A stretch of DNA of 64,000 nucleotides, taken from sequence record KM657822. One strand, written 5' to 3'. This DNA is from Escherichia phage vB_EcoM-VpaE1. Positions 46,457-61,643 of the stretch are shown here, piece after piece (positions within the stretch are counted from its first letter, which is position 1; each line of letters starts with the position of its first letter). The notes under the pieces are model-generated. The model worked only from the letters and a program-made list of their open reading frames with translations, searched no databases and was not told the origin of the DNA. The position numbers were made by a program, and so were the translations under genes.

Positions 46457-47503
46457 ATGGAGAAGTACACATTAACAAAGCTTCCCGATTCAGTTACACA
46501 TGTCTTTATTGACTCTGACAGTATTGCCTATAAAGGTGCTTGTGTAGTTGAGAAAGCAAAATATAAATACGTCAATAAACTCACAGCAGAAGAATCTGAA
46601 CCATTTGATAATGCAAAAGATGCTGCAAGATGGTTAGCAGACCAGAGAATCCTTGTGGAAGAACTTGGCCTGACATTTGATGAAGATGAATGGGAAAGAC
46701 AGACTTGGAAAGAAGCTAAGAGTGAAAAAGAAGCTATCATGGCTACTCAACAGGTTCTTCAGGAATGGCTTAAGGTGGTTGGTAAAGAGAGAACTTGGGT
46801 AGGTTATTTAACAGAGAAAGGTGTACATAAGCATAAAGACATTAAAGGTCTTGAGCACCAATATCAAGGTAACCGCAAAGATGCTGTCACACCAACACAC
46901 TTAGTTGCTTGTCGCGAGTATCTTCTGTCAAGACCAGAGTTCAAATTGATTCTTGATGGATTTGAAGCTGACTCTATCGTTATTGCTAAAGCTGAAAAAA
47001 TGGGAAAAAAGGCTGCCTTAATGAGTATTGATAAAGACCTTCGCCAAGCTGAAGGGACTTACTGCATTGATATGACCTATGAAAAGTCACCTTTGATTTT
47101 CATTGCTGACAACAACGTAGGTGAAATTTGGGATTGCCCAATAAAATCGACACCAAAAGCTAAGAAGACAGTTGGGGTAGGTTTTAAATTTCTTTGCTAT
47201 CAAGCCGTGGCTGGTGATAATGCGGATAATTATTTTGGCTTAAAGGGTGTTGGCAAGGTTACTATAATGAAAGCCCTTGAGGGTAAAACTACTTACAAAG
47301 AGTGTCTTGATGCAATTTATGAGCTTTATGCTAAGAAAGAGTCATACACTTATGTCTCGTGGGATGGTCAAACAATTACCAGAACACCTTTAGAGTTAAT
47401 GCAGCAACACTTTTTCTTAGCTTATCAGGAAAGAAACAAGAAAGACGATTTCACTTTTGATAAGTATGGGTGGACACCAAATGTTAACTCAACAAACTCT
47501 TAA
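46457..47503 (+). CDS. 5'-3' exonuclease / flap endonuclease (T4 RNase H-like)
   Basis: N-terminal acidic cluster VFIDSDSIAY, central SIDKDLRQ, helix-hairpin-helix-like AGDNADNYFGLKGVG. Confidence 0.6.
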   Translation: MEKYTLTKLPDSVTHVFIDSDSIAYKGACVVEKAKYKYVNKLTAEESEPFDNAKDAARWLADQRILVEELGLTFDEDEWERQTWKEAKSEKEAIMATQQVLQEWLKVVGKERTWVGYLTEKGVHKHKDIKGLEHQYQGNRKDAVTPTHLVACREYLLSRPEFKLILDGFEADSIVIAKAEKMGKKAALMSIDKDLRQAEGTYCIDMTYEKSPLIFIADNNVGEIWDCPIKSTPKAKKTVGVGFKFLCYQAVAGDNADNYFGLKGVGKVTIMKALEGKTTYKECLDAIYELYAKKESYTYVSWDGQTITRTPLELMQQHFFLAYQERNKKDDFTFDKYGWTPNVNSTNS

Positions 47504-47972
47504 AGAATACCTGCACTATGACCCCGAAACAGGGGTCTTTACTTGGATTAAGAAGTCTGCTAGACACACAAAAATTGGCTCTGTTGCAGGTACAAACTTA
47601 AGAGGGTACACCAGAATTTATTTGTTTGGTAAGGGCTATTATGCACATACCCTAGCTGTTCTGTATATGGATGGATACCTACCTGAGTGTGTTGACCATA
47701 AAAATCATGTAACACTAGACAATCGCTGGGTAAATCTTAGGGCATGTACGTTATCAGAGAACCAATGTAATAGGTTGCTCAATAAGAACAATAAATCAGG
47801 TGTTAAGGGTGTGTACTACAAAAAACAGTATGGTAAGTGGTCTACACAGATAACTTTTAAGAAGAGGGTTTACTTCTTCGGCTACTATGACACTATTGAT
47901 GAAGCAGCAGAGGTTGTAAATAGGGAACGCCAACGTTTACACAAAGAGTTTGCTAATAAAGGTGATGAATGA
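47457..47972 (+). CDS. HNH homing endonuclease with AP2-like domain
   Basis: HNH core CVDHKNHVTLDNRWVNLR...ENQCN then AP2-like SGVKGVYYKKQYGKWSTQITF. Confidence 0.7.
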   Translation: MISMGGHQMLTQQTLKEYLHYDPETGVFTWIKKSARHTKIGSVAGTNLRGYTRIYLFGKGYYAHTLAVLYMDGYLPECVDHKNHVTLDNRWVNLRACTLSENQCNRLLNKNNKSGVKGVYYKKQYGKWSTQITFKKRVYFFGYYDTIDEAAEVVNRERQRLHKEFANKGDE

Positions 47973-48469
47973 GAAAAATAAAAGGTTTTGGCAATTGCCC
48001 TGAATATGGACATTGGGTTTCACTATGTGGTGAAGTTGACCCAGCAAAGCACTTTGGTTTTGTCTACCTAGTGTACTGCAAAAAGACTGGACAGTACTAT
48101 TTGGGTAAGAAACAGCTTAATAGTGTGACCAAAAGAAAAGTTGCTGGCAAGACTCGGAAGAAGGTAGTCACTAAGGAAAGTGATTGGATGACTTATGAGA
48201 CTTCTTCTGAGTATATTAAAAAAGATATTGAGAGCTTTGGAAAAGAATTTTTTGACTTTTACATTATTCAGACCTACTACACAAAAGGTGGCCTAGTTTA
48301 TGGTGAAGCAAACCTTCAACATAAGTTCGATGTAATGACAAAAAGGATTGACTCGAAGCTCAGACTCTTCTACAATGCCAATATTGCAGCAATTAAGTTT
48401 ATTACTAAAGAAACTTATGAAGATGCTGAAAAAAGAATCCATAAGGTAATGAAAGCAAATTGTGCTTGA
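47969..48469 (+). CDS. hypothetical protein, possible GIY-YIG-like nuclease
   Basis: GFVYLVYCKKTGQYYLGKK loosely fits the GIY...YIG spacing; weak. Confidence 0.3.
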   Translation: MRKIKGFGNCPEYGHWVSLCGEVDPAKHFGFVYLVYCKKTGQYYLGKKQLNSVTKRKVAGKTRKKVVTKESDWMTYETSSEYIKKDIESFGKEFFDFYIIQTYYTKGGLVYGEANLQHKFDVMTKRIDSKLRLFYNANIAAIKFITKETYEDAEKRIHKVMKANCA

Positions 48470-48475
48470 TAACTA

Positions 48476-48739
48476 TTGAGAGAGAGTAAAATGTTTAACA
48501 AAAGCAAAGCTGTGAGTCATGTAGCAAAAGTTGACAGCAAGATTGAAGAACTTGAGCGCATTCTTGCAAATGCTAAAGAGTCAATAATTAAAGAAGTTGA
48601 AGCTGTTGAATCTCAAATGCAGCACCTCATGCTTAAACGCCAAGAGCTACGTGAGCATCTAGAATATATTGAAACACGAGAGCTAAAAGTTAACAGATAT
48701 TTTAAGGAGTCCGAATGTTTAACTCAAGAGAATCAGTAA
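48476..48739 (+). CDS. hypothetical coiled-coil protein
   Basis: 87 aa, helical heptad-rich. Confidence 0.35.
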   Translation: MRESKMFNKSKAVSHVAKVDSKIEELERILANAKESIIKEVEAVESQMQHLMLKRQELREHLEYIETRELKVNRYFKESECLTQENQ

Positions 48740-49470
48740 AAAACTGGAACCTTCGTTGTGGAAACACTCAAAAGCAACCTTACAGTAATGAGTATTGGGA
48801 ATCTTTAAAATCTCAATCTCTGTGTATGCTTGAAGAAGCAAAAGAGCTTGTAAAAGCAATTGAAGAGAAAGACCCCATTGAGACACTGGATGCTCAGGCA
48901 GATTTGCAATATGTTCTTGACGGTTTGATTTACCTGTCACAACATGACCACAATGGTGCTATGAAAGCTGTTTGCCATAATAATGACCTGAAGTACACAG
49001 ATGACTATGAAGAAGCTTTAAAACGTCTTGCAGACATTGAAAATCGTACTGGTCAAGAGTGTGTTATCAGAATGTCAGTAGTTGATGGTAAAGAGTGGTA
49101 TGCGATTGTCCGTGCAGCCGATGGGAAGATTATGAAGCAATCAAATCTCCCTAAAGTACAGCTTGGTGAATACATTGTAGAACTTGAAAGCCAAGAACTT
49201 TTTGTGGTAGTATCTGAGACATGCGTTATCTGCAAAGGTATTGTAGGTAGCTTAAAGGATTTGGGTGTAGATGGTTTTGTAGAAGTTAATCCAATTACCT
49301 CTAAAGCAGATAAAGACTTCTGTAAAGAGAATGGACTATGGATTGCAGATATTATCTACTATGATGGTGAGCAGTTCCATGTAACCTCATACCCGAAACT
49401 GAATTATGATGCTAATAACCTGAAGTGCTGGTTAAAAGGGGTTGGTTATAATGGATTCACAGAACATTAA
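48715..49470 (+). CDS. MazG-like nucleotide pyrophosphohydrolase domain protein
   Basis: EEAKELVKAI ... ETLDAQADLQYVL resembles MazG EExxE...ExxD; extra ~140 aa C-terminal domain. Confidence 0.45.
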   Translation: MFNSRESVKNWNLRCGNTQKQPYSNEYWESLKSQSLCMLEEAKELVKAIEEKDPIETLDAQADLQYVLDGLIYLSQHDHNGAMKAVCHNNDLKYTDDYEEALKRLADIENRTGQECVIRMSVVDGKEWYAIVRAADGKIMKQSNLPKVQLGEYIVELESQELFVVVSETCVICKGIVGSLKDLGVDGFVEVNPITSKADKDFCKENGLWIADIIYYDGEQFHVTSYPKLNYDANNLKCWLKGVGYNGFTEH

Positions 49471-49774
49471 TAAAGAGGGTGTGGCTCAGAAGAGCCACTT
49501 CTCAAACTACAATATTTCTATGACGGTGTTTATGAATGACCCGTTACTTGAAAAGTATGGTGAGACTCCAGATACACTTCTGGATAATGAACAAGTTTTA
49601 AAAGCAGTCCTGTACAAATATGGGATTGATATTGAGAAAGAGTATTCTTTTGAAATCTGTCAACACAGGAATACTTTCGGTAAAGTTGTAATGGCTCCAC
49701 TCTTCATGGGTGTAGAAAGAACTGACTATGGTTGGTTATATCTAAAAAGAAACTTGGAGAAATACCGTGTCTAA
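49442..49774 (+). CDS. hypothetical protein
   Basis: 110 aa ORF. Confidence 0.3.
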   Translation: MVIMDSQNINKEGVAQKSHFSNYNISMTVFMNDPLLEKYGETPDTLLDNEQVLKAVLYKYGIDIEKEYSFEICQHRNTFGKVVMAPLFMGVERTDYGWLYLKRNLEKYRV

Positions 49775-50099
49775 AGCAAAAAAGCTATCTTATGATGACA
49801 TTATCTCAGGTGCTAAATTAGGTGTTGATAGTATCGGACAAGATGTTAAGCACGGGGACACAGTTATGTACTGTGATGACCGAAGAGGCAGAAGTGCAAT
49901 CTTGTTTGGGAGAATTGTTTGCAAGATGCGAGGTAATTACGTTGTTGAAGACATGAATGTGGATGTCACAAAACAGCTTGAAATAATTATGAACAATAAT
50001 ATATCATGGTTCGTCAATTGTATGCACACTTCATCAGTCACAAAGGTAAGTGATAAGTTTTACGATATGTGGCAGAACGAGCAAATTTTCAAGATTTAA
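49767..50099 (+). CDS. hypothetical protein
   Basis: 110 aa ORF followed by terminator. Confidence 0.35.
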   Translation: MSKAKKLSYDDIISGAKLGVDSIGQDVKHGDTVMYCDDRRGRSAILFGRIVCKMRGNYVVEDMNVDVTKQLEIIMNNNISWFVNCMHTSSVTKVSDKFYDMWQNEQIFKI

Positions 50100-50104
50100 A
50101 CTAG

Positions 50105-50128
50105 GGAGCCTCTTTGGAGGCTCTTTTC
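50105..50128 (+). terminator. rho-independent terminator
   Basis: GGAGCCTC-tttg-GAGGCTC followed by TTTTC. Confidence 0.5.
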
Positions 50129-50145
50129 ATCTGTAGGATTCGAAA

Positions 50146-52380
50146 ATGATTAAGACAATTAAAAAATCAAATGGTACAGTAGTAAGCTTTGACCCAGAAA
50201 GACTGAATAAGTGGGCATCATGGGCAGATAAGCGTGGAATCATCTGGTCAGAAGTCACTATGGAAGCCATGAAACGTGTCTATGAAGGTTGCACTACAAA
50301 AGAGATGCACCAAGCTATGATTGATGTTTGTGTTGATAAACAAACTCAAGAGTACTCAGACATGGCTGGGCGGCTACTTCTGGGGATTATCTACAAAGAA
50401 GCCTTTGGAGGCTTTACTAAGGTTCCTACGCTGGTTACCTTCGTTAAAAATATGGAGAGAGCAGGACTTTGGGAGAAGATGGACTATTCTCAGGAAGAGC
50501 TTGAATATCTGCAAGGGTACATTGTGCACTCAAAAGATATCTCTTACGGTTATGCAGTCCTGAAACAGTTCAGAGACAAGTATGGTATCCGTGATATTAA
50601 AACGGGAAGACTTTTTGAGTCACCACAATTTATGTTTATGGGTATGGCTATGAAAGCCTTCGAGAAGCAACCAAAGCACCGTAGACTGCAAGATGTTATC
50701 AAGCTGTACACTTACTTATCTGACCTGAAGATTAACGCTCCTACGCCTTATCTGAATGGCTTAAGAGCTACTAAATCAGGTTATGCGTCATGCTGTTTGA
50801 TTAAGGCGAATGATACTGCTGAATCTCTAGGTATTGCTGCAAAGGTTGCCTATGACATGACCACAAAGCAAGCTGGTATTGGTATGCTGATGGAGACTCG
50901 CACTATTGGTGATGGTATCCGTCAAAACACTATTGAGCACATGGGTAAACTGCCTTATTACAAGCTTGTACGCTCATCTGTAGAGGCAAACAAACAGAAG
51001 AGTCGTGGTGGTTCAGCTAACAACTTCTACACTGCTCTAGACCCGCAGATTGAAGATTTACTACGTTTGAAGCACCCTACAACGGTTCCTTCTAAACGTA
51101 TTAACGAGATGGACTACTCATTTGGTACAAATGATTATTTCTGGCAGTGTGTCCAGTATGATACAGATTGGTTGCTATTCTCTTACAAAGATGCACCAAA
51201 ACTCTATGACATGTTCTACACAGCATCTGCTGATGAGTTTGCTATGGCAGTTGGTCACGCAGTACATTCAGGAGTTAAGCACAGACGAGTCAAGGCTCGT
51301 GAAATTGCTAAGCTGTTTATTCAACAGCGTTATGCTACAGGTCGTGTGTATCCATTCTTCACTAACAACGCAAACACACATACACCATTTAAAGAACCAT
51401 TGAAGATGTCAAATCTTTGTATGGAAATTGTGTTGCCAGTGTATGGTTTTGAGAAAGAGACAGACCTTTACAGAGACGATGCTGTGAAAGAGGATGGTGA
51501 GGTGGCTCTTTGCTTCCTAGCTAGTTTGGTTGCAGGGAGAATTTCAGAAGATGAATACGCTGACGTTGCTTATTATGCTCTTGCAATGGTTGACTCCGTT
51601 ATTGACCTTATGGATTATCCGTATCCGTCGATGCGTAACCATGTTCAGAAGCGTCGTTCTGTTGGGATTGGCCTTACAAATGTGGCTCATTACCTTGCGA
51701 AGAACTACGTGAACTACTCTTCACGAGCAGGTAAAACGAAACTTCATGAACTTGCAGAGATGCACTCTTACTATCTGCATGAAGCCTCGCTGAGACTTGC
51801 TAAAGAGCGTGGCGTTCCAGAGTACATGAAGTTCACTAAGTATCCTGAAGGCTGGGTTCCTCCAAAGACAGCTAACAAGAAGATTGATGAGAAGCATGAT
51901 GCAAAACTAAGATATGATTGGGATGACTTAGCACAACGTATCAAAGAAAACGGTGGCATCCGAAACTCTGTACTTGAGGCTTATATGCCTAATGAGAGTT
52001 CTTCACTGGCAACTAATACGACAAATGGCTTGTACCCAATTCGTGACTTTATTTTAACTAAAAAGTCTGCAACTGGTAACGTGCTGTTTATTGTTCCAGA
52101 TTATGAAGAGTTGAAGTATGTATATGAAATTGCTTGGGGTATTGACACCTTTGACCTGATTGATTGTTATGCAATTGTTCAAAAGTTCACTGGTCAAGCT
52201 ATCTCTTCAGATTTCTATGTTGACTACGCAAAAGCTAAGAAGGTATCATTGGCTCAAGCTTTGAAGTACATGATTTATGCCAACTCGGTAGGTATGAAAA
52301 CCATGTACTACCTTAACAGTCGCATTGGTGTAGGTAAATCTGCACTGCAAGATGCTTATTGCGAGGGTTGTGGTGTTTAG
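50146..52380 (+). CDS. nrdA: ribonucleoside-diphosphate reductase alpha subunit (class I)
   Basis: N-terminal ATP-cone-like segment, active-site NLCMEI, C-terminal CEGCGV. Confidence 0.85.
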   Translation: MIKTIKKSNGTVVSFDPERLNKWASWADKRGIIWSEVTMEAMKRVYEGCTTKEMHQAMIDVCVDKQTQEYSDMAGRLLLGIIYKEAFGGFTKVPTLVTFVKNMERAGLWEKMDYSQEELEYLQGYIVHSKDISYGYAVLKQFRDKYGIRDIKTGRLFESPQFMFMGMAMKAFEKQPKHRRLQDVIKLYTYLSDLKINAPTPYLNGLRATKSGYASCCLIKANDTAESLGIAAKVAYDMTTKQAGIGMLMETRTIGDGIRQNTIEHMGKLPYYKLVRSSVEANKQKSRGGSANNFYTALDPQIEDLLRLKHPTTVPSKRINEMDYSFGTNDYFWQCVQYDTDWLLFSYKDAPKLYDMFYTASADEFAMAVGHAVHSGVKHRRVKAREIAKLFIQQRYATGRVYPFFTNNANTHTPFKEPLKMSNLCMEIVLPVYGFEKETDLYRDDAVKEDGEVALCFLASLVAGRISEDEYADVAYYALAMVDSVIDLMDYPYPSMRNHVQKRRSVGIGLTNVAHYLAKNYVNYSSRAGKTKLHELAEMHSYYLHEASLRLAKERGVPEYMKFTKYPEGWVPPKTANKKIDEKHDAKLRYDWDDLAQRIKENGGIRNSVLEAYMPNESSSLATNTTNGLYPIRDFILTKKSATGNVLFIVPDYEELKYVYEIAWGIDTFDLIDCYAIVQKFTGQAISSDFYVDYAKAKKVSLAQALKYMIYANSVGMKTMYYLNSRIGVGKSALQDAYCEGCGV

Positions 52381-52435
52381 TTTTAACAACTATGAGGGTC
52401 GTAAAAGACCCTCTAAAAATAACTTTGGAGAGACC

Positions 52436-52693
52436 ATGAAAGATTTAATAGAAAAACATGAACGACCTATATACTTGCTCCACAAGCCTCGGAAAACGAT
52501 GTACTATGTGAGTAGCACAGATATGATGATAAAACAAAAGGATGACTCATGGGTTGCTGGTATCTCTTACATCTCTACAGCAGATGGTAAAATCTACGCA
52601 AGACCTTATGAGATGTTTAACAAAGAGAATTGGGAAGTTTTAGACAGAAAACAAGCCTTAGAAATGATAAAGAAAGGAGAAATCACGCTATGA
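52436..52693 (+). CDS. hypothetical protein between nrdA and nrdB
   Basis: 85 aa from ATG 52436 behind GGAGAG; 4 nt overlap with nrdB start. Confidence 0.35.
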   Translation: MKDLIEKHERPIYLLHKPRKTMYYVSSTDMMIKQKDDSWVAGISYISTADGKIYARPYEMFNKENWEVLDRKQALEMIKKGEITL

Positions 52694-53763: not shown

Positions 53764-54005
53764 TGACTTATGTGATTTACTCCAAAACTGGATGCCCTCA
53801 GTGTGAGACTGCAAAGAATTTTGCAAAAGCTCGTGGTATTGACCATGTTGTGAGAATGTTAGGGCAGGATTATGAACTGTCAGACCTGATGGATATTGCA
53901 CAGATGCCAGTTCGTCAGATGCCATTCATCATGAAAACTGATGGACAAAACCTAAAACCTGTTGGAACGCTACAGAATTTTATGGCAGAGGTGAATAATG
54001 CTTAA
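53763..54005 (+). CDS. nrdH: glutaredoxin-like protein (NrdH/NrdC-like)
   Basis: 80 aa with N-terminal CPQC redox motif. Confidence 0.6.
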   Translation: MTYVIYSKTGCPQCETAKNFAKARGIDHVVRMLGQDYELSDLMDIAQMPVRQMPFIMKTDGQNLKPVGTLQNFMAEVNNA

Positions 54006-54204
54006 ACGCCTTTGGGAAGGTCTGGTTGTTGATGCACCAGCCATTGTGATTGGTATGCTTGTTGTTAACCTATTTACTGATTTTGAACAAGGTTCATTGT
54101 TTGGAGCCATGTTACTATGGGTTATCTTTGAAATATTAGAGATACAGTTAGGCATCACTGAAAAACTGAGAAAACTCGTTTCTAAGTTTTCTAAAAAGAT
54201 TTAA
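53998..54204 (+). CDS. small membrane protein
   Basis: 68 aa, two hydrophobic segments. Confidence 0.3.
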   Translation: MLKRLWEGLVVDAPAIVIGMLVVNLFTDFEQGSLFGAMLLWVIFEILEIQLGITEKLRKLVSKFSKKI

Positions 54205-54211
54205 AATGAAA

Positions 54212-54234
54212 GGGTCTCTTCGGAGACCTTTTTA
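54212..54234 (+). terminator. rho-independent terminator
   Basis: GGGTCTC-ttcg-GAGACC followed by TTTTT. Confidence 0.5.
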
Positions 54235-54252
54235 GCATGTAAAGGGGCAATA

Positions 54253-56397
54253 ATGAACAAAGTACAGATTATTAAAAAGAACGGCTCACTTGAAGAACCT
54301 GATATCAAAAAAGTTTTAGCAGCAGTAGCTAAGTCAGCTAACAGGGTTGGATATAAAGAACTTCCACCAGATGTTACCCAAGCTCTTGAGTCAGCATTCA
54401 TGAGGATTTTGGTAAAGTCCACTAAGCAGAATAATTTGCTTATCTCGGTAAATGATATTCACAGTATTGTTGAAGGTGCTTTGGCAGAAGTTAATCACGA
54501 GATTTATGAGTCTTACTCAACATACAGAAATTACCGTAAAGAGGTTGCTCAAAATTGGGATGAACTCTACCAGAAGACTAAAGATACACTCTTCTTAGGT
54601 GACCGTGAAAATGCTAACTTTGACAGCAGTTTAATTTCTACGAAAGGTTCAATTATCCGTGGTTACCTGACTAAAGAAATCTTTAAACAGTATCATCTAA
54701 CACCAGAGGAACTTGAAGCCATTGAGAAAGGCTTTATCTATATCCACGATTTGAGAGACCTGATTTTTGGTGGTATTAACTGTTGCCTGTTTGACATTGG
54801 TAAAGTACTAAAAGGTGGCTTTGAAATGTCCGGCATTGAGTACTGTGAACCTAAATCTGTACTGTCAGCGTTGCAGGTTATTGGTGACGTAGTACTCTCA
54901 GCAACTGCACAGCAATTTGGTGGTTTTACTTTAGCAGAGATTGATAAGGTACTTGTACCGTATGCTAAGAAGTCTCTACGCTATCATGCTGAGAAAGCAT
55001 CATCTTATGGTATTCCTAAAGAGCATTACCACAATTATGTAATGGAGCAGTTACAAATTGAACTGACGCAAGGTTTTCAGTCACTTGAGATGAAACTAAA
55101 TACCGTACCTTGTAGCCGTGGTGATTTTGCATTCACAACTTTAACATTTGGTTTACTTGACTCAGATATGTCTAATGAGGATAATCGACTACAATACATG
55201 ATTGCAAGTACTCTCCTAGATGTTCGTATGAATGGACAAGGTAAGAGCAAAAAGCCTGTTGTATTCCCTAAACTGGTTTATATTTATGACCAGAAGAGAC
55301 ATGATGAGAATATCTGTCAAGGTCACCTGTACAGTAAAGCTATTGAGTGTTGCTCTAAAGCAATGTACCCAGATTTCTTAAGTGTGTCTGGTCATGGTGC
55401 TGTAGCAGAGGCTTTTGAGCGTTCTGGTAAGGTAATTTCACCGATGGGTTGCAGAGCTTTCTTATCCCCATATCTTAACGAGAATGGAGAAGAGTTCTAC
55501 GTTGGTCGTGCTAATATTGGTGCTGTATCTTTGAACTTACCAATGATTTACCAGTATTCTAAAGAGAATGGTTTAGATTTCTGGAAAGAGCTTGATAAGT
55601 ACCTAGAAATGATTCGCAGCTTCCATAAGAAACGTTACGAAATGATTGCCAATATGCCAGCAAGTTCTAACCCTCTTGCATTCACACAAGGTGGTCTGTA
55701 TAAAGGGACTAAGAAGCCTACTAACAAGGTTGGTTGGGATATTGTGAAGTCCTTCACAGCTTCTTTTGGGGTTACTGCTCTTGATGAGTTATCTGTTCTT
55801 GCTGAAGGTAAACGACTTCATGAAGTTGGAAGTTCTAGTTTTGCATACGATGTTCTGGCATACATTAACATGAAAACTGAAGAGTTTAAGAATGAAGATG
55901 GCTTCCTGTATGCAGTATATGGCACTCCAGCAGAGTCATTGTGTGGAACTCAGCTAAAACAGTTCAGAGATATGTTTGGTGTTATTAAAGGCGTTTCTGA
56001 CAAGGAATACTTTACAAACAGTTTCCATATGAATGTTGCAGCAAACATCTCACCATTTGAGAAGCAGGACTTAGAAGAGCCATTCTTCCATATCTGTAGA
56101 GGTGGCAGAATCCAGTATGTAAGGGTAGCTAACCCAGAAAACTTACCAGCACTTAAAAGTTGTATTACAAGAGGGATGTTGAAAGGTTTCTATCAGGGGC
56201 TTAACTTTGACTTAGCAATCTGTGAACATTGTGGTAACAGACCAAAGGCTGATGTTGAAGAATGTGAGGTTTGCCATTCACATGATATCTCTGTGATTAA
56301 CAGGGTGTGCGGGTACTTGTCATTCACAAAAATTAAAGGTCAGTCTCGAATGAATGACGCTAAGATGGCAGAAATTAAGGATAGGGTTTCTATGTAG
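54253..56397 (+). CDS. nrdD: anaerobic ribonucleoside-triphosphate reductase
   Basis: C-terminal Zn cluster CEHCGN...CEVC and glycyl-radical RVCGY near C-terminus. Confidence 0.85.
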   Translation: MNKVQIIKKNGSLEEPDIKKVLAAVAKSANRVGYKELPPDVTQALESAFMRILVKSTKQNNLLISVNDIHSIVEGALAEVNHEIYESYSTYRNYRKEVAQNWDELYQKTKDTLFLGDRENANFDSSLISTKGSIIRGYLTKEIFKQYHLTPEELEAIEKGFIYIHDLRDLIFGGINCCLFDIGKVLKGGFEMSGIEYCEPKSVLSALQVIGDVVLSATAQQFGGFTLAEIDKVLVPYAKKSLRYHAEKASSYGIPKEHYHNYVMEQLQIELTQGFQSLEMKLNTVPCSRGDFAFTTLTFGLLDSDMSNEDNRLQYMIASTLLDVRMNGQGKSKKPVVFPKLVYIYDQKRHDENICQGHLYSKAIECCSKAMYPDFLSVSGHGAVAEAFERSGKVISPMGCRAFLSPYLNENGEEFYVGRANIGAVSLNLPMIYQYSKENGLDFWKELDKYLEMIRSFHKKRYEMIANMPASSNPLAFTQGGLYKGTKKPTNKVGWDIVKSFTASFGVTALDELSVLAEGKRLHEVGSSSFAYDVLAYINMKTEEFKNEDGFLYAVYGTPAESLCGTQLKQFRDMFGVIKGVSDKEYFTNSFHMNVAANISPFEKQDLEEPFFHICRGGRIQYVRVANPENLPALKSCITRGMLKGFYQGLNFDLAICEHCGNRPKADVEECEVCHSHDISVINRVCGYLSFTKIKGQSRMNDAKMAEIKDRVSM

Positions 56398-56426
56398 AAT
56401 ACAAATGAATTACGAACTAATATATA

Positions 56427-56963
56427 ATGCAATTATTAAGAAGGCACATTCTGAAAGGGGGTGTGCCTCTTACATACTACAAATGTCAAGGTAAGGGTTA
56501 TGAAAGACACCATATCATACCAGTGTGTCTAGGTGGCGATAAAATTAGTGGAGATAATATTGCTCTACTTACACCTAGAGAACATTATATAGCTCATAAA
56601 TTACTGGTTAAGATGTATCCAAACAACCACAAGTTATGGTTTGCATGGAACAGGCTAGCTCATGATGGCCTAGATAGGAAAATATCATCCAGAGACTATG
56701 AAAAGGTAAGGGCTTTGAACTCGAAAGCTTTATCTATTGTGAATAAAGGTAGGGTTTTCACTGAAGAACATCGAAGACGATTAGGAGAATCTCAAATAGG
56801 TAATACAAAATCAAAAGGTTGTAAAAGGTCTATAGAAACAAGGAAGAGGATGTCAGAAGCCGGAAAAAAGCCAAAGAAAAAGAAAACTTGCCCTCATTGT
56901 GGTATGACTGGTGGTGCTGGTAACATGACTCGATATCATTTTGACAATTGTAAGAAAAAATAA
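56427..56963 (+). CDS. HNH homing endonuclease with NUMOD3-like repeats
   Basis: ERHHIIPVCLGGDKISGDN HNH core; FTEEHRRRLGESQIG and SIETRKRMSEAG repeats; C-terminal CPHCG. Confidence 0.65.
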   Translation: MQLLRRHILKGGVPLTYYKCQGKGYERHHIIPVCLGGDKISGDNIALLTPREHYIAHKLLVKMYPNNHKLWFAWNRLAHDGLDRKISSRDYEKVRALNSKALSIVNKGRVFTEEHRRRLGESQIGNTKSKGCKRSIETRKRMSEAGKKPKKKKTCPHCGMTGGAGNMTRYHFDNCKKK

Positions 56964-56982
56964 CCTTATGTAAAACTTGACA

Positions 56983-57022
56983 AGGTGATGTGGGTCTTGA
57001 TAGGCTTACATCACCTTTTTTA
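56983..57022 (+). terminator. rho-independent terminator
   Basis: 9 bp stem AGGTGATGT/ACATCACCT followed by TTTTTT. Confidence 0.5.
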
Positions 57023-57127
57023 TTGGATGTTAGATATGGCAGAAAGTATTATTGGATTGCTCATATGTTCTGTCTTACTAGGGTTCTTTTTAGGACTCTC
57101 TTATTGTGAATTGAGAGATAAGTTAAA

Positions 57128-57328
57128 ATGTTTAAGATATCAAAAACGATGATATACATACTCCACATTCTAATCTTCTTCTTTGGGGTTAGTGTTATGG
57201 TATGGGGTTTTTCAGACCCACAATGGAGTTTCTCATATCATGGTCAGATGGATTTATGGTCATGCTTCAAACCATTTTTAGGGTTAGTCATAGCATTCAG
57301 TGCATTACCAACTAAGGTGAAATTATGA
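57128..57328 (+). CDS. small membrane protein
   Basis: 66 aa, two hydrophobic helices. Confidence 0.3.
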   Translation: MFKISKTMIYILHILIFFFGVSVMVWGFSDPQWSFSYHGQMDLWSCFKPFLGLVIAFSALPTKVKL

Positions 57329-57720
57329 TTAAGTTGAGTCAAAAACAGTTAGAGTGGATTAAAGATTATGCCTCAGAGTGTGGCTCTTGTGAAAAGAATC
57401 ACGTAAGATACTCAACATTCCACACGGTCTTCACATTGTATATCGGTGAAAATGTTCTAAGTGATTCTGTAGAAGACGGTGTAGCATTGCCTAATGAATT
57501 ACTTGATAAACTAGCTGTAGTCTCTGGAACTTGGTCTGAGGAAGATGGTCACGAGCTATCTGATGATGTTGTCTTCTACACCCTTGAAAACATCATGAAT
57601 CCAGAGTACATTATGCTAATGACTTGTGCACAAGACTGTGTTCCATTACAAAACTTCATTAAAGAGCACTGTGAAGAGTTTATTACTAAACAGGTTCCTT
57701 GTCAGGTGGTATTTGAATGA
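57325..57720 (+). CDS. hypothetical protein
   Basis: 131 aa ORF. Confidence 0.35.
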   Translation: MIKLSQKQLEWIKDYASECGSCEKNHVRYSTFHTVFTLYIGENVLSDSVEDGVALPNELLDKLAVVSGTWSEEDGHELSDDVVFYTLENIMNPEYIMLMTCAQDCVPLQNFIKEHCEEFITKQVPCQVVFE

Positions 57721-58016
57721 GTAAAACAATTCGAAGAAAAGGTTTAAAGAACGTTCATGGACTTTATGAGTGGAGAAATGAGGTACGTAACAGAGAAAAT
57801 GCTTCAGAGGTCTACTACCACTCTGATATGATGTCTAGAAAAGGTGGCTCTTACGACTTCACAAGCCAGCCTTGTAGAGAGATTAAGAAGGCTACTAAAC
57901 GTCTTACAAGAACACAAATAAGGCAGCTTTCTAAGACATCCTTCTTAGATGAAGACTTTGACATTGATAGTAAGTCCCCAAAGAAAGCTGCTAAGAATAC
58001 TTATATGTATTGGTGA
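57717..58016 (+). CDS. hypothetical protein
   Basis: 99 aa ORF. Confidence 0.35.
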   Translation: MSKTIRRKGLKNVHGLYEWRNEVRNRENASEVYYHSDMMSRKGGSYDFTSQPCREIKKATKRLTRTQIRQLSKTSFLDEDFDIDSKSPKKAAKNTYMYW

Positions 58017-58025
58017 GGTAACTAG

Positions 58026-58511
58026 ATGAATTACATGGAGATTAGACCATTTGATACAGCTAATGGTGAAGGGGTTCGTGTAAGCCTCTTCGTAGCTGGT
58101 TGTAAGCATCACTGCGAAGGCTGCTTTAACAGAGAGTCTTGGAAGTTTAATGCTGGTAAAGAGTTTACTTATGCAAACTTCTACGGAATCATCCAGCTAA
58201 TGGGCGATAATGCCGTCAGTGGGTTGTCGATACTTGGTGGAGAACCTCTGGATGATAGAAATATTCAAGAGGTCACCAATATATGTAAACGTATTAAAAC
58301 TGTTTACCCAGAGAAATCTATCTGGCTCTGGACAGGTTTTCAGTTACACGAAAAAATTCACCTTGATGTGATGAAATATGTTGACGTGGTGATTGATGGT
58401 AAGTATGATTCATCTAAACCAACAGTTAAACCGTATCGTGGTTCTGATAACCAAAACCTCTGGAGAAAAGAGTATGGGTGGCAAGGTGATTGTCAGTGGA
58501 GAGCCGAGTAA
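58026..58511 (+). CDS. nrdG: anaerobic ribonucleotide reductase activating protein (radical SAM)
   Basis: CKHHCEGC cysteine motif near N-terminus; follows nrdD after endonuclease/small-gene insertions. Confidence 0.8.
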   Translation: MNYMEIRPFDTANGEGVRVSLFVAGCKHHCEGCFNRESWKFNAGKEFTYANFYGIIQLMGDNAVSGLSILGGEPLDDRNIQEVTNICKRIKTVYPEKSIWLWTGFQLHEKIHLDVMKYVDVVIDGKYDSSKPTVKPYRGSDNQNLWRKEYGWQGDCQWRAE

Positions 58512-58548
58512 GTCTCGTCGTAAAGTAGGTTATGGAAAAGGTGAAATA

Positions 58549-58851
58549 ATGGTTCTTTCTTTTAACAGTGCTTTATTAGGTACTTACAAAGTTAAGACCG
58601 AACTCCTTGATGAATGGAGAAAATATACAAACTCACTTTTCGGTAATGTTGGAATGGAAGCCTTAGCAGAGATTGAGAAGGCTGGAACATTTGAAGTTGT
58701 CGGTAAAGGTCACTACACAATGTTCTACAAAACAAATTTAAACGTCGGAGACAGTATTGTTGGTGTCACTGAAGAAGAACTTAAAACATTTTGTGAAAAG
58801 ATTGAGAGAGATACGAAATGGGAATCTGGAATAGTTTTAAATCAAAAGTAA
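58549..58851 (+). CDS. hypothetical protein
   Basis: Start at internal ATG behind AAAGGTGAAATA; upstream track ORF overlaps nrdG. Confidence 0.35.
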   Translation: MVLSFNSALLGTYKVKTELLDEWRKYTNSLFGNVGMEALAEIEKAGTFEVVGKGHYTMFYKTNLNVGDSIVGVTEEELKTFCEKIERDTKWESGIVLNQK

Positions 58852-59075
58852 AAGCAGCACTAGCTTCATTAGGTATGCTCACTGGAGTTGATGTGACTCA
58901 TCTTATGCAGAACTTCAAGATGGATGAGAAGCTGACTAATGAGATTATGAAAAGTATCTATGTAGGCCGTGGCAAAGGTGGTAAGAAACAAGCCCATCGT
59001 CCGTCTGGTGCAGCAGCTATTAAACGAGCAGCTAAGAAAGCTCGTAACCGTAAACGTAATAAGAAGGCTAAATAA
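58818..59075 (+). CDS. hypothetical basic protein
   Basis: 85 aa, Lys/Arg-rich C-terminus. Confidence 0.3.
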   Translation: MGIWNSFKSKVKAALASLGMLTGVDVTHLMQNFKMDEKLTNEIMKSIYVGRGKGGKKQAHRPSGAAAIKRAAKKARNRKRNKKAK

Positions 59076-59077
59076 TC

Positions 59078-59398
59078 ATGAGCAAAATCTATAACACTCG
59101 CAAATTACAGATTTTCGTACTGTGTCAGTTTATGGCTAAAGAATACAACTTCTACTATTGTGGTACAGGTTTTATTAGCGATGATGATGGCTCATACCTA
59201 CCATTTAAAGAAGCTGTGAAGCTCTTTAATGAAGAGAAAAACTCTAAGAAAGATATCGAAAAGGTCAAGCTAACCTATAGCAAGAAAGATAAGAAGATTA
59301 TCTGCCTAGATAACTTTGTAAAAGTTACTGGAGAAGCAAAAGAGTTTATGGATGAGAGTGAGATTTCATTCACAAGCATCTTGAAAGTAGCTCAGTAA
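59078..59398 (+). CDS. hypothetical protein
   Basis: 106 aa ORF followed by terminator. Confidence 0.4.
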   Translation: MSKIYNTRKLQIFVLCQFMAKEYNFYYCGTGFISDDDGSYLPFKEAVKLFNEEKNSKKDIEKVKLTYSKKDKKIICLDNFVKVTGEAKEFMDESEISFTSILKVAQ

Positions 59399-59410
59399 AC
59401 AGATACTATA

Positions 59411-59440
59411 AGGGAACTGTAAAGGTTCCCTTTTTATTTT
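59411..59440 (+). terminator. rho-independent terminator
   Basis: AGGGAAC-tgtaaa-GGTTCCC followed by TTTTTATTTT. Confidence 0.55.
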
Positions 59441-59449
59441 GGAGATGAT

Positions 59450-59965
59450 ATGTATCTGTCAAACCTGAAACGTTCGGCTGCAATGTCAGTTCTAAGACTC
59501 AGCTTTGAGGAACGTCAAGAGTTCATTGACTCCCACCAATACGACCCTTCTAACTCGAATCACATGGTTCTTTGGAATCGTGATAACTTCCGTGAAAGAG
59601 CACTTGTCCGTTATTACCCACACTACACAATAGATAACCTGTATGAATGGTGTGTTGTGAAGAACACTATTGCAACACTGAACAATCTTTGCAGGTATAC
59701 AGGTAAGCAAACATTTACATTAGGCCACCACAAACCCGTTACAAAGGGTGGTGAGCATCACTGTGCAAACTGGTTTATCCAGACTAAACTTGATAACCAG
59801 AAGCAAGGAGATAACCTTCTAAGCACCCCTAAGATGACCTATGAAGAGCAAGAGATATATATCAAAAATAATATGCCAGATGTGCTTGACAACCACTATA
59901 CAGATTTGGCAATATCTCTCCTGTTGAAGTTCGAGACAGTTTATAGGGCAACTTACAATGGCTAA
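59450..59965 (+). CDS. hypothetical protein, possible HNH-like nuclease
   Basis: LGHHKPVTKGGEHHCANW resembles an HNH-type His/Cys cluster; weak. Confidence 0.3.
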   Translation: MYLSNLKRSAAMSVLRLSFEERQEFIDSHQYDPSNSNHMVLWNRDNFRERALVRYYPHYTIDNLYEWCVVKNTIATLNNLCRYTGKQTFTLGHHKPVTKGGEHHCANWFIQTKLDNQKQGDNLLSTPKMTYEEQEIYIKNNMPDVLDNHYTDLAISLLLKFETVYRATYNG

Positions 59966-60236
59966 AGAGAAGTGGGAAATCCTACCATTAGTGAGTGAAG
60001 GTGGTAACGGTTGTGAGATGTACATGATACGTGGTCATGTCCCAGAACCAATTGCACTTGAGATGGTAAACAATTTTACAGATGGTTCTTACAAAGACTT
60101 GGGAGAGCCAACTATAAAGCATCAATGGGTAAAGCCTGTACCAGACAGCACAGGTAACTGTAGTGTACTTTACCACGTTGTAGACCCTGTAAAATGCAAA
60201 TCTGCAATGGCAGTAACAAACGTAACTTTTGATTGA
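59958..60236 (+). CDS. hypothetical protein
   Basis: 92 aa ORF. Confidence 0.3.
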   Translation: MAKEKWEILPLVSEGGNGCEMYMIRGHVPEPIALEMVNNFTDGSYKDLGEPTIKHQWVKPVPDSTGNCSVLYHVVDPVKCKSAMAVTNVTFD

Positions 60237-60247
60237 GAGAGAAAACT

Positions 60248-61129
60248 ATGAAAACATCTATCCGTGTTACAGTTCATTCACCAACTAAAGGGACTCATGA
60301 AGAAGAGTTTAACATCGTCCAATTTCCTTCTGGTGAGATTGGTGGACATTTTTCACCAGAGTTTGTTGATTTTACTGCTTATGCTGCATCATCCATCAAC
60401 AACGTGATTATGATTGTAAAGGGTTATGACAAAGACACATTATTTGCTGTGGCACTTGCTAAAGAGGCAATTGATGATTTAGTACCTCATAAGTTTGCTA
60501 TGAAGACTGCTATCTTTTACTATTTGCCAAATGCACGTTACGACCGTCACATGTTTAAAGGTGATGCAGCAGCTTTGAAAGTGTTTGCACAACAGGTTAA
60601 TGCAATGGGTTTTGATGCAGTCTGTGCAGTTGACCCTCATAGTTACGTTCCAGATAACCTTTTCAACTGCTTCCAGAGTATTCCTCAAAAGGAAATTGCA
60701 GTCCACTATGCAAATGACCCACTGATTGATTACTTAGTAGCCCCAGATGCAGGTGCTGCTAAGAAGATTGCAGAGACTGCTAAAGAGGTGGATAAACCAT
60801 ACATCACAATGTCTAAAGTGCGTAACCTTAAGACTGGTGAAATTACTAGTATGCGAATCCTTGATGATGTTGATTTGACAGATAAAACCGTCATGATTCT
60901 TGATGATATCTGTGATGGTGGTCGAACTTTCGTAGAGGCAGCTAAACACCTACGTGAAGCAGGTGCAAAACGTGTTGAGCTTTATGTAACACATGGTATC
61001 TTCTCTAAAGGTGTTGAAAACCTTCTTGACAACGGTATCGACCATATTTACACTACAAATTCTTTAGGCGAAGCTAAAGACCGTGGCTTAACACATTATG
61101 GTCAAGTTACTGTAGCAAACATTGATTAG
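60248..61129 (+). CDS. prs: ribose-phosphate pyrophosphokinase (PRPP synthetase)
   Basis: PRPP-binding loop ILDDICDGGRT, VAPDAGAAKK and THGIFS motifs; start ATG 60248. Confidence 0.7.
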   Translation: MKTSIRVTVHSPTKGTHEEEFNIVQFPSGEIGGHFSPEFVDFTAYAASSINNVIMIVKGYDKDTLFAVALAKEAIDDLVPHKFAMKTAIFYYLPNARYDRHMFKGDAAALKVFAQQVNAMGFDAVCAVDPHSYVPDNLFNCFQSIPQKEIAVHYANDPLIDYLVAPDAGAAKKIAETAKEVDKPYITMSKVRNLKTGEITSMRILDDVDLTDKTVMILDDICDGGRTFVEAAKHLREAGAKRVELYVTHGIFSKGVENLLDNGIDHIYTTNSLGEAKDRGLTHYGQVTVANID

Positions 61130-61137
61130 GTAACAGT

Positions 61138-61629
61138 ATGAATAAGGGTTATTTTGAAAGATACCTAATATATGAACCAGATACAGGTTTATTAATTTGG
61201 AGAGTAACCCTTTGCAGTACCGCTATTGCTGGTAATGTGGCTGGCACAAGGTCTAAGAAGGGTTATATCCAAGTCCAGATAAATAAGAAGAGGTACTATG
61301 CACATAATATTGCATGGATTATGTCTGGAGGTGAGATACCAAGTGGATATGAGATAGACCACATAGACCTTGATAAATCTAATAATAAGTTGGAGAATTT
61401 AAGACTTAGCACAAAGTCACAAAATCAGAGGAATAGGGGTATATACAAGAATAATAAAACTGGTGTGAAGGGTGTAAGTTTTTGTAAACAAACAGGTCTT
61501 TACAAAGCAAGAGTCATGCTTTACCATAAAGAATACTTTTGTGGAAGATTTAAAACGGTAGAAGAAGCAAAAGAAGCTGTAATTAAAAAGCGAATAGAAC
61601 TTCATGGTGAGTTTGCAAGACATAACTAA
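61138..61629 (+). CDS. HNH homing endonuclease with AP2-like domain
   Basis: YEIDHIDLDKSNNKLENLR...SQNQRN HNH core then AP2-like TGVKGVSFCKQTGLYKARV; paralog of the 47457 gene. Confidence 0.7.
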   Translation: MNKGYFERYLIYEPDTGLLIWRVTLCSTAIAGNVAGTRSKKGYIQVQINKKRYYAHNIAWIMSGGEIPSGYEIDHIDLDKSNNKLENLRLSTKSQNQRNRGIYKNNKTGVKGVSFCKQTGLYKARVMLYHKEYFCGRFKTVEEAKEAVIKKRIELHGEFARHN

Positions 61630-61643
61630 GAGAGAGATAAAAT

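What the first reader, a model, noticed from the sequence alone, without database searches (positions are those of the whole stretch)
47457..61629. Multiple free-standing homing endonuclease genes among nucleotide-metabolism genes
HNH genes sit after the exonuclease gene (47457), between nrdD and nrdG (56427) and between prs and nadV (61138), with weaker candidates at 47969 (GIY-YIG-like) and 59450. Two carry AP2-like domains and one NUMOD3-like repeats. These positions are where homing endonucleases typically invade in phages with this gene set.
Basis: partly seen in the sequence, partly recalled or inferred. Interest (0 to 1): 0.5.

Follow-up and report, generated by a model that had tools for sequence, protein, structure and literature searches.

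The report
Homing endonuclease genes in Felix O1-like phage
This stretch of a Felix O1-like phage carries three small selfish nuclease genes that come and go between related phages, plus two nuclease-like genes that are fixed core genes; this is a well-known feature of the phage group and is not a new kind of element.

Summary
The window is a Felixounavirus (Felix O1-like myovirus), 90-96% identical to about 260 public genomes.

All five ORFs exist where stated, and profile and structure searches confirm the main domain calls:
- 47481-47972 and 61138-61629 are I-HmuI-like HNH nucleases fused to an AP2 DNA-binding domain.
- 56405-56963 is a MobE/colicin-type HNH gene with a NUMOD3 module.
- 47969-48469 is a SegE-type GIY-YIG domain.
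- 59450-59965 has only a suggestive HNH-like motif.

The three HNH genes behave as free-standing homing endonuclease genes:
- They are precise insertions present in a minority of relatives.
- The 100-500 bp of flanking coding sequence next to each insertion is sharply diverged between carriers and non-carriers.
- One is about 90.5% identical in genomes whose flanks are only about 75% identical.

The GIY-YIG gene and ORF 59450 are fixed, syntenic and under purifying selection, so they are not currently mobile.

Corrections: two start codons move. In this genome the nrdD-adjacent gene carries a +1 frameshift in a G-run.

Outside the stated coordinates, the DNA polymerase gene contains a group I intron with a decayed EndoVII-type endonuclease ORF.

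Homing endonucleases in Felix O1-like phages are already published and annotated. The finding is correct but ordinary.

The parts
47481..47972 (+). HEG1: free-standing HNH_3 + AP2 homing endonuclease gene. It overlaps the last 23 nt of the exonuclease gene and the ATG of the GIY-YIG gene. The mechanical ORF starts at TTG 47457.
   Evidence: Pfam HNH_3 1.2e-11. PHROG 99 at 9e-70. Paralogue of HEG5. Family profile and structure results. This allele is in 19 phage records, a 63-67% identical alternative allele is in 43, and the site is empty in 122.
47969..48469 (+). Stand-alone GIY-YIG (SegE-type) catalytic-domain gene. It is fixed in the subfamily and is not a currently mobile element.
   Evidence: Pfam SegE_GIY-YIG 8.9e-27. 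Present in 226 records and in all 33 loci. dN/dS 0.04. Syntenic after exo in Erwinia Kolesnikvirus. Invariant GFxY/YxG/E113/N136 and no C-terminal extension.
56405..56963 (+). HEG3: MobE/colicin-type HNH + NUMOD3 homing endonuclease gene inserted between the nrdD stop codon and the nrdD terminator. In this genome an extra G in the run at 56457-56461 puts the first 19 codons out of frame; the remaining ORF is 56427-56963.
   Evidence: domains. (G5 here, against G4 and an intact 185-aa ORF in four relatives). (47 records carry it). (absent from Felix O1, pinkbiff, RPN213 and REP11).
56391..56399 (+). 5' copy of the imperfect 9-bp direct repeat TATGTAGAA (the end of nrdD) that bounds the HEG3 insertion. 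The 3' copy, TATGTAAAA, lies at 56967-56975.
   Evidence: Junction comparison with empty sites, which hold a single copy.
56982..57017 (+). Terminator-like hairpin (16-bp stem followed by a T-run). It directly follows nrdD in HEG-less genomes and follows HEG3 here.
59450..59965 (+). Fixed core ORF (PHROG 3500) with an invariant HNH-like motif (H93, N107, N116). It may be an HNH-fold nuclease and is not mobile.
61138..61629 (+). HEG5: free-standing HNH_3 + AP2 homing endonuclease gene between prs and nadV. It replaces a 32-33 bp spacer with a terminator-like hairpin that is present at empty sites.
46951..47467 (+). 3' part of the exonuclease gene: a carrier-specific haplotype, and so a candidate target or co-conversion tract for HEG1.
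   Evidence: 93-96% identity in carriers against 78-85% in empty-site genomes, with equal identity further out.
56301..56399 (+). Last ~100 bp of nrdD: a carrier-specific haplotype, and so a candidate target or co-conversion tract for HEG3.
   Evidence: 99.2% identity in carriers against 79.9% in non-carriers. About 20 mostly synonymous differences.
61630..61750 (+). Start of nadV: a carrier-specific haplotype. It is shared even with the distant carriers L018/L019 for about 100 bp, which marks a co-conversion tract and the candidate HEG5 target region.
   Evidence: 97% against 83% identity. Codon-level alignment.
37666..38445 (-). Outside the finding's coordinates: a group I intron in the DNA polymerase gene. 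It carries an EndoVII-family endonuclease ORF (38337 down to 37877) that a 22-bp deletion has broken into two ORFs.
   Evidence: The intron core is 95-98.6% identical to the RPN213 intron that passes Rfam's threshold. The spliced polymerase is 909 aa and 92% identical to Felix O1's. Pfam Endonuclease_7 1.4e-19. Deletion relative to phage HK3.

Best explanation
Three of the five ORFs (47481-47972, 56405-56963 and 61138-61629) are free-standing homing endonuclease genes of a Felix O1-like phage.

Inferred mechanism: when a carrier phage and a non-carrier phage infect the same cell, the nuclease cuts or nicks the non-carrier genome. The cut falls in the conserved coding sequence next to the insertion point: the 3' end of exo or the 5' end of the GIY gene for HEG1, the last 100 bp of nrdD for HEG3, and the first 100 bp of nadV for HEG5. 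Recombinational repair then copies the endonuclease gene together with a variable length of flanking sequence from the carrier. Carrier genomes are protected because their flanks carry many, mostly synonymous, substitutions.

HEG1 and HEG5 pair an I-HmuI-like HNH nuclease with an AP2 DNA-binding domain. HEG3 pairs a colicin/MobE-type HNH with NUMOD3 and a C-terminal Cys/His motif.

Shown here: domain architecture, the insertion polymorphisms, horizontal transfer, and flank haplotypes that segregate with carriage. Inferred: cleavage specificity, the nick-or-cut chemistry, and the homing event itself.

The GIY-YIG gene (47969) and ORF 59450 are nuclease-like but fixed, constrained core genes. 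At most they are long-domesticated relatives of such elements. In this genome HEG3 may be inactivated or N-terminally altered by a frameshift.
For: Domains.

Precise indels against empty sites:
- 47468-47964 against 15 bp.
- A 576-bp insertion bounded by a 9-bp repeat after nrdD.
- 61128-61629 against 32-33 bp.

Frequencies among about 259 relatives:
- HEG1: 19 records with this allele, 43 with the alternative allele, 122 empty.
- HEG3: 47 records.
- HEG5: 60 records, against 121 empty.

The elements assort independently among 33 loci with 95-97% identical nrdA.

Horizontal transfer: HEG5 is about 90.5% identical in L018/L019, whose prs and nadV are 75-77% identical. Its dS of 0.41 compares with 1.0-1.25 for the flanks. 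HEG5 is 100% identical to VSe11 while the flanks are 93-97%.

Flank divergence is localised and segregates with carriage. The nadV start is shared with the distant carriers for about 100 bp.

dN/dS of 0.05-0.20 shows the three genes are maintained as proteins.

No group I intron surrounds them.

Fixed status of the other two genes.
Against: No cleavage or homing assay exists for any of these proteins, so target sites are inferred only from flank polymorphism.

A few non-carriers (L003, L005, L033, L078) have carrier-type flanks. The flank haplotypes are therefore not perfectly diagnostic, and they could reflect linkage or loss of the element and not immunity.

HEG3 is frameshifted in this genome.

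The promoter scan gave no signal above chance.
Confidence: 0.82

Rival explanations
1. The sporadic HNH genes are ordinary accessory genes gained and lost by illegitimate recombination or deletion, with no endonuclease-driven homing. On this view the flank haplotypes simply reflect shared ancestry of linked DNA.
For: The HEG3 insertion is bounded by a 9-bp direct repeat that could mediate insertion or precise deletion. Some non-carriers have carrier-type flanks.
Against: All three encode site-specific-type nucleases with DNA-binding modules. HEG5 plus about 100 bp of nadV is far more similar between distant genomes than the rest of the flanks. Divergence is confined to 100-500 bp next to each insertion and returns to equal beyond that, which matches the known co-conversion signature.
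Confidence: 0.08
2. The elements in this genome are decaying remnants and no longer active homing endonucleases. They are at the degeneration stage of the homing cycle.
For: HEG3 has a +1 frameshift unique to this genome among five loci. The polymerase-intron endonuclease has a 22-bp deletion.
Against: HEG1 and HEG5 are intact, with all HNH motif residues invariant in the family alignment and dN/dS of 0.05-0.20. HEG5 is 100% identical to copies in many other phages. The HEG3 frameshift lies in a homopolymer run. It may be a sequencing error, and it leaves a 178-aa ORF with the whole HNH motif.
Confidence: 0.07
3. The HNH proteins serve the phage itself and are not selfish elements. Possible roles would be packaging cofactors of terminase or nucleases that degrade host DNA.
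For: HNH proteins with such roles exist in other phages (general knowledge). The genes are under purifying selection.
Against: They are absent from most close relatives, which are viable phages. They are not next to the terminase gene. They carry sequence-specific DNA-binding modules typical of homing enzymes.
Confidence: 0.03

Closest known systems
Felix O1 ORF106 and ORF128 'HNH endonuclease' (NP_944978, NP_945017) and their annotated homologues in Felixounavirus genomes
   Same: Same positions (after exo, and between prs and nadV), same HNH+AP2 family. HEG5 is 89.8% identical in nucleotides to Felix O1 ORF128 and 100% identical to copies in VSe11, Mushroom and others. Published as six HNH copies in Felix O1 (PMC3185647) and as the main indel differences among Felix O1-like phages (PMC3728262).
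   Different: At the exo site the window carries the other allele (pinkbiff type), which is only 63-67% identical in nucleotides to Felix O1 ORF106. Felix O1 lacks the nrdD-adjacent gene. It has four further HNH genes that the window lacks.
I-HmuI (Bacillus phage SPO1; PDB 1u3e) and the HNH-AP2 endonuclease class
   Different: I-HmuI is intron-encoded and uses different DNA-binding modules, whereas HEG1 and HEG5 are free-standing. I-HmuI nicks one strand (my own knowledge); whether these enzymes nick or cut both strands is untested.
T4 MobE-type free-standing HNH endonucleases in ribonucleotide reductase gene clusters
   Same: HEG3 sits next to an nrd gene. It has the YE-HHIIP...GG...N...H motif and a NUMOD3 module, and one relative is annotated 'MobE-like HNH homing endonuclease'.
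   Different: It is inserted after nrdD, not between nrdA and nrdB. Homology to MobE itself was not tested directly here. This copy is frameshifted.
T4 SegE / I-TevI-type GIY-YIG homing endonucleases
   Same: The 47969 ORF matches Pfam SegE_GIY-YIG (8.9e-27) and keeps the GIY, YIG, Glu and Asn positions.
   Different: It has no C-terminal DNA-binding domain. It is fixed, syntenic and strongly constrained across Ounavirinae, and its homologues form a conserved small gene in cyanomyoviruses (T4-like gene cluster 213, mislabelled 'NAD synthetase').
Intron-encoded endonucleases of phage DNA polymerase genes (for example in SPO1-like phages and Staphylococcus phage K)
   Same: The window's polymerase gene is interrupted by a group I intron carrying an endonuclease ORF.
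   Different: The ORF belongs to the Endonuclease VII family, and a 22-bp deletion disrupts it here.

Membership tests
HNH_3 / I-HmuI-like homing endonuclease with AP2 domain (HEG1, HEG5) | HNH (beta-beta-alpha-metal) nuclease domain with conserved His/Asn residues | tested here: met
HNH_3 / I-HmuI-like homing endonuclease with AP2 domain (HEG1, HEG5) | AP2-type DNA-binding domain C-terminal to the nuclease | tested here: met
Free-standing homing endonuclease gene (HEG1, HEG3, HEG5) | Sporadic presence at a fixed site between conserved genes, with precise empty sites in close relatives, and not inside an intron or intein | tested here: met
   No Rfam intron in the region.
Free-standing homing endonuclease gene (HEG1, HEG3, HEG5) | Evidence of horizontal spread with co-conversion of flanking markers | tested here: met
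   HEG5 is about 90.5% identical where the flanks are 75-77%, and shares the first ~100 bp of nadV with the distant carriers. Flank divergence is localised.
Free-standing homing endonuclease gene (HEG1, HEG3, HEG5) | Site-specific cleavage of the HEG-less allele and super-Mendelian inheritance in mixed infection | not testable with these tools
   Requires enzyme assays and phage crosses.
MobE/colicin-type HNH + NUMOD3 endonuclease (HEG3) | HH...N...H motif and NUMOD3 module | tested here: met
   The alignment to the pyocin AP41 and colicin E9 HNH motif keeps all key residues. NUMOD3 scores 21.8 bits against a cut-off of 20.4. PHROG 655 at 1.6e-51.
MobE/colicin-type HNH + NUMOD3 endonuclease (HEG3) | Intact full-length reading frame | tested here: not met
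   An extra G at 56457-56461 separates the first 19 codons from the rest. Four relatives have G4 and an intact 185-aa ORF.
Seg-type GIY-YIG homing endonuclease (ORF 47969) | GIY-YIG catalytic domain | tested here: met
   Pfam SegE_GIY-YIG 8.9e-27. Invariant motif residues.
Seg-type GIY-YIG homing endonuclease (ORF 47969) | C-terminal DNA-binding domain | tested here: not met
   The Pfam domain spans residues 22-139 of 166. The long relatives P0150 and K571 have an extension that this protein lacks.
Seg-type GIY-YIG homing endonuclease (ORF 47969) | Sporadic distribution among close relatives | tested here: not met
   Present in 226 records and all 33 loci. Identity tracks the backbone. dN/dS is 0.04. 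Syntenic in Erwinia Kolesnikvirus.
HNH endonuclease (ORF 59450) | HNH beta-beta-alpha-metal motif recognisable by profile or fold | tested here: inconclusive
Homing endonuclease gene (ORF 59450) | Sporadic distribution | tested here: not met
   Present in 202 records and all 33 loci. dN/dS 0.10-0.17, like prs and nadV.
Group I intron with endonuclease ORF (DNA polymerase, 37666-38445, minus strand) | Group I intron RNA and splice boundaries that restore the host ORF | tested here: met
   The Rfam hit in the window is partial (24 bits against a threshold of 50). The core is 95-98.6% identical to the RPN213 intron that scores 62 bits. The 5' exon ends in U and the intron ends in G. The spliced ORF is 909 aa and 92% identical to the uninterrupted Felix O1 polymerase.

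The most novel reading that the evidence does not exclude
The two fixed nuclease-like genes are domesticated former homing endonucleases that now perform a core phage function, such as exclusion of co-infecting relatives or processing of host or phage DNA. This applies above all to the stand-alone GIY-YIG domain gene. That gene is conserved after the exonuclease gene across Ounavirinae, has homologues in hundreds of cyanomyoviruses under the misleading label 'NAD synthetase', and evolves as slowly as nrdA.

A second, smaller possibility concerns the exo|GIY site. The two diverged HNH-AP2 alleles there may compete by each cutting the other's flank haplotype.
Probability: 0.3. Interest if true: 0.4.

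Novelty: already known. Interest (0 to 1): 0.15.

Why it matters
It matters mainly for correct annotation and for understanding mosaicism in a phage genus widely used for Salmonella and E. coli typing and biocontrol. These selfish genes, and the co-converted flanks they drag along, account for much of the local sequence divergence in exo, nrdD, prs and nadV between otherwise near-identical phages.

The flank analysis narrows where each enzyme probably cuts, which makes target-site mapping directly testable.

It also corrects several annotations:
- the 'NAD synthetase' label on a GIY-YIG gene;
- two start codons;
- a frameshift in the nrdD-adjacent gene;
- the 'two-gene' DNA polymerase, which is one gene with a group I intron.

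None of this changes what is known about how homing endonucleases work.

Tried and rejected
- Sequence search of single proteins against PDB chains gave nothing useful for the GIY-YIG gene or HEG5. Only the family profile worked.
- NCBIfam has no model for any of the five proteins.
- The ORF 59450 profile against the PDB gave only a repeat-inflated, individually non-significant resemblance of residues 12-56 to the Staphylococcus protein A helix motif.
- The sigma-70 promoter scan was no better than shuffled sequence (53 sites against 47.5 +/- 7.7), so I make no claim about HEG promoters.
- A role for the HNH genes as terminase cofactors was rejected on position and on their sporadic distribution.
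- The idea that the three genes lie in introns or inteins was rejected. There is no Rfam intron in the region, and the flanking genes are complete.
- The word-indexed homologue search for the GIY-YIG protein reached only close relatives. tblastn against phage genomes was needed to see the cyanophage members.


Full report
**Identity of the window.** Window 46400-64000 matches 259 phage records by megablast, and 200 of them cover at least 80% of it at 90-96% identity. All are Felix O1-like myoviruses (Felixounavirus, Ounavirinae) of Salmonella, Escherichia, Shigella and Citrobacter.

**The observation.** All five ORFs are present.
- Pfam finds HNH_3 in the 47457 ORF (1.2e-11) and the 61138 ORF (1.7e-19). 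It finds SegE_GIY-YIG in the 47969 ORF (8.9e-27). In the 56427 ORF it finds NUMOD3 just above its cut-off, plus a weak colicin-DNase HNH match. It finds nothing in the 59450 ORF.
- PHROGs agrees: HNH endonuclease family 99 at about 1e-69 for the two HNH_3 proteins, and homing endonuclease family 655 at 1.6e-51 for the third. The GIY-YIG ORF matches family 447 (labelled 'NAD synthetase') plus a homing endonuclease family. ORF 59450 matches an unknown-function family, with only a weak HNH hit at 7e-6.
- The AP2 calls were below Pfam's threshold for the single sequences, so I tested them further. A 44-sequence alignment of homologues, many of which carry precomputed HNH_3+AP2, matches solved plant AP2/ERF domains over positions 109-162: WRI1 at 6.3e-10, TEM1 at 4e-6, ERF096 at 1e-3 and AtERF1 at 8e-3. 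Over positions 32-104 it matches the HNH homing endonuclease I-HmuI at 7e-8.
- The nuclease motif of the nrdD-adjacent protein aligns residue for residue with the HNH motif of pyocin AP41 and colicin E9.

**Corrections to coordinates.**
- The first gene most likely starts at ATG 47481 (MLTQQ...). That start is preceded by GGTGG at a suitable distance, matches the N-terminus of its paralogue, and is the start annotated in VSe11. It overlaps the last 23 nt of exo.
- The nrdD-adjacent gene starts in relatives at the ATG equivalent to window 56405 and encodes 185 aa (MNYELIYNAIIKK...). The window has GGGGG at 56457-56461 where four relatives have GGGG. The first 19 codons are therefore out of frame with the rest. 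This could be a real early inactivating mutation or a homopolymer sequencing error. The 178-aa remainder retains the whole HNH motif.

**Which ORFs are mobile?** Precise indels separate the window from relatives:
- Window 47468-47964 is replaced by 15 bp in RPN213 and REP11.
- A 576-bp segment after the nrdD stop, bounded by the imperfect 9-bp repeat TATGTAGAA/TATGTAAAA, is absent from Felix O1, pinkbiff, RPN213 and REP11.
- Window 61128-61629 is replaced by a 32-33 bp spacer with a terminator-like hairpin.

Counts in the phage collection:

| Site | This allele | Other states |
|---|---|---|
| exo site (HEG1) | 19 records | 43 records with an alternative allele of the Felix O1 type, about 60% aa and 63-67% nt identical; 122 empty |
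| after nrdD (HEG3) | 47 records | not counted |
| prs\|nadV (HEG5) | 60 records | 121 empty |

In 33 Felixounavirus-type loci the three elements and the nrdD intron assort in nearly all combinations, although nrdA is 95-97% identical throughout.

By contrast, the GIY-YIG gene (226 records) and ORF 59450 (202 records) are in all 33 loci. Their identity tracks the backbone, about 80% in the distant clade.

**Evidence for homing and against simple indels.**
- HEG5 is 100% identical to VSe11 while its flanks are 93-97%. It is about 90.5% identical in L018 and L019, whose prs and nadV are only 75-77% identical. Its dS against L018 is 0.41, against 1.0-1.25 for the flanks.
- Those distant carriers share the window's first ~100 bp of nadV and then diverge, which marks a co-conversion tract.
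- Across 25 close loci, carriers and non-carriers differ sharply only next to the insertions. Elsewhere the two groups are equal.

| Flank | Carriers | Non-carriers |
|---|---|---|
| last ~500 bp of exo | 93-96% | 78-85% |
| first 130 bp of the GIY gene | 91% | 78% |
| last 100 bp of nrdD | 99.2% | 79.9% |
| first 120 bp of nadV | 97% | 83% |

- The differences are mostly synonymous, and the tract lengths vary between genomes. This is the classic signature of free-standing homing endonucleases, which cut the neighbouring conserved gene of naive genomes. The established model comes from T4 seg and mob genes (my own knowledge).
- A few non-carriers have carrier-type flanks (L003, L005, L033, L078). 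The haplotypes are therefore not perfectly diagnostic.
- HEG3 sits between the nrdD stop codon and a strong terminator-like hairpin (56982-57017). In HEG-less genomes that hairpin follows nrdD directly. This suggests HEG3 is co-transcribed with nrdD.
- HEG3 and HEG5 have 3-6 points lower G+C than their neighbours.

**The two fixed genes.**
- The GIY-YIG gene has dN/dS of about 0.04, like exo and nrdA. It is syntenic after exo even in Erwinia Kolesnikvirus. It keeps the GIY, YIG, Glu113 and Asn136 positions down to 27% identity. It lacks the C-terminal extension present in the long homologues P0150 and Vibrio phage K571.
- tblastn finds the GIY-YIG family in 811 phage records, including 337 Synechococcus phages. 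There it is 'T4-like gene cluster 213' and carries the same doubtful 'NAD synthetase' label. I therefore do not file it as a homing endonuclease gene. It is a conserved stand-alone GIY-YIG nuclease-like gene of unknown role.
- ORF 59450 has dN/dS of 0.10-0.17, like prs and nadV. It has an invariant pattern H93-x2-P-x3-GG-x5-N107-x8-N116-x-K that fits an HNH (HNN) motif, and the model places a beta-beta-alpha unit exactly there.

**Beyond the stated coordinates.**
- The window lacks Felix O1's three tRNA-region HNH genes and the polymerase-adjacent one.
- Its nrdD is intron-less like Felix O1's. Many relatives carry a group I intron at window position 55450, with or without an endonuclease ORF.
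- The window's DNA polymerase gene is interrupted at 38445 to 37666 (minus strand) by a 780-nt group I intron. The core is 95-98.6% identical to the RPN213 intron that scores 62 bits in Rfam. The 5' exon ends in U and the intron ends in G. Splicing restores a 909-aa polymerase 92% identical to Felix O1's uninterrupted enzyme.
- The intron carries an Endonuclease VII-family ORF (Pfam 1.4e-19) that is 160 aa and intact in phage HK3. In the window a 22-bp deletion splits it.
- Together with the HEG3 frameshift, the genome shows elements at different stages of the invasion and decay cycle.

**Comparison with what is known.**
- The Felix O1 genome paper reported six HNH homing endonuclease copies and no introns (PMC3185647).
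- The Mushroom announcement described the split polymerase and nrdD genes (PMC4392139).
- GenBank records already annotate these very genes as HNH or homing endonucleases.
- No paper in the searchable library combines 'Felixounavirus' with 'group I intron'. The intron assignment for the split genes may therefore be under-reported, but it is a routine Rfam result.

**Verdict.** The two weaker candidates are fixed nuclease-like core genes. The finding belongs to an already known, already annotated class. Interest is low, apart from the testable target-region predictions and the annotation corrections.

Noticed in passing
window 37666-38445 (minus strand): The DNA polymerase gene is split by a 780-nt group I intron carrying an Endonuclease VII-family ORF. 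A 22-bp deletion, relative to phage HK3, breaks that ORF into 101-aa and 78-aa pieces. Splicing at U38446 | 37665 restores a 909-aa polymerase. Public records annotate such polymerases as two genes.
   Followed up: yes
window 55450 (within nrdD); L002 9060-9891, L003 23921-24224, L005 23871-24245: The window's nrdD is intron-less like Felix O1's. Many relatives have a group I intron at exactly this position: Rfam scores 55-60 bits in the ORF-less forms, and about 765 bp with an endonuclease ORF in pinkbiff and VSe11. The literature describes this as a gene disrupted by a free-standing endonuclease.
   Followed up: partly
window 56457-56461: This G5 run is G4 in four relatives carrying the same gene. 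It frameshifts the N-terminus of the nrdD-adjacent HNH gene. The cause could be a real mutation or a homopolymer sequencing error.
   Followed up: yes
window 57717-58016: This 99-aa ORF has only a weak DUF5499 match (E=6e-4, below the cut-off) and is also variably present. It is absent from Felix O1, RPN213, VSe11 and REP11, and present at 95-98% identity in pinkbiff and about 11 other loci. It has no nuclease features. The whole nrdD-nrdG interval is a hot spot for small-gene indels.
   Followed up: partly
window 33608-35512 (minus strand ORFs 33772-34212 and 34215-34817): This 1.9-kb block with two ORFs (146 and 200 aa, no Pfam match) between ORF87-like genes and DNA ligase is absent from Felix O1 but present in REP11.
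   Followed up: no
window 2340-3651 (tRNA cluster): The window lacks the three HNH endonuclease genes (ORF44, 45, 47) that Felix O1 carries among its tRNA genes, and also the HNH gene next to the polymerase (ORF95).
   Followed up: partly
window 59483-59617 (residues 12-56 of ORF 59450): The segment LSFEERQEFIDSHQYDPSNSNHMVL resembles the [24 protein letters not shown] helix-loop-helix of Staphylococcus protein A domains. Each single match is non-significant (i-Evalue 1-7), and the low overall E-value comes from the repeats in the target.
   Followed up: no
window 59078-59398 and 59450-59965: The upstream 106-aa ORF (Pfam DUF7390, 6.6e-17) is annotated 'putative HNH homing endonuclease' in pinkbiff, with no domain support here. 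A 259-aa database protein (P0002) combines DUF7390 with the ORF 59450 sequence. A 261-aa version in phage VpaE1_ev78 is also longer than the 171-aa ORF, although its N-terminal part was not examined.
   Followed up: no
window 60233-60600 (5' part of prs): This segment is only 71-75% identical to Felix O1 but 99-100% identical to VSe11, while neighbouring segments are 93-95% identical to Felix O1. This marks a local mosaic block in prs that is not adjacent to the endonuclease gene.
   Followed up: no
window 47969-48469 and homologues in L087, L088: The 'NAD synthetase' product name attached to this gene family (PHROG 447, T4-like gene cluster 213) in hundreds of phage records has no support from domain searches. 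The protein is a GIY-YIG nuclease-domain protein.
   Followed up: partly
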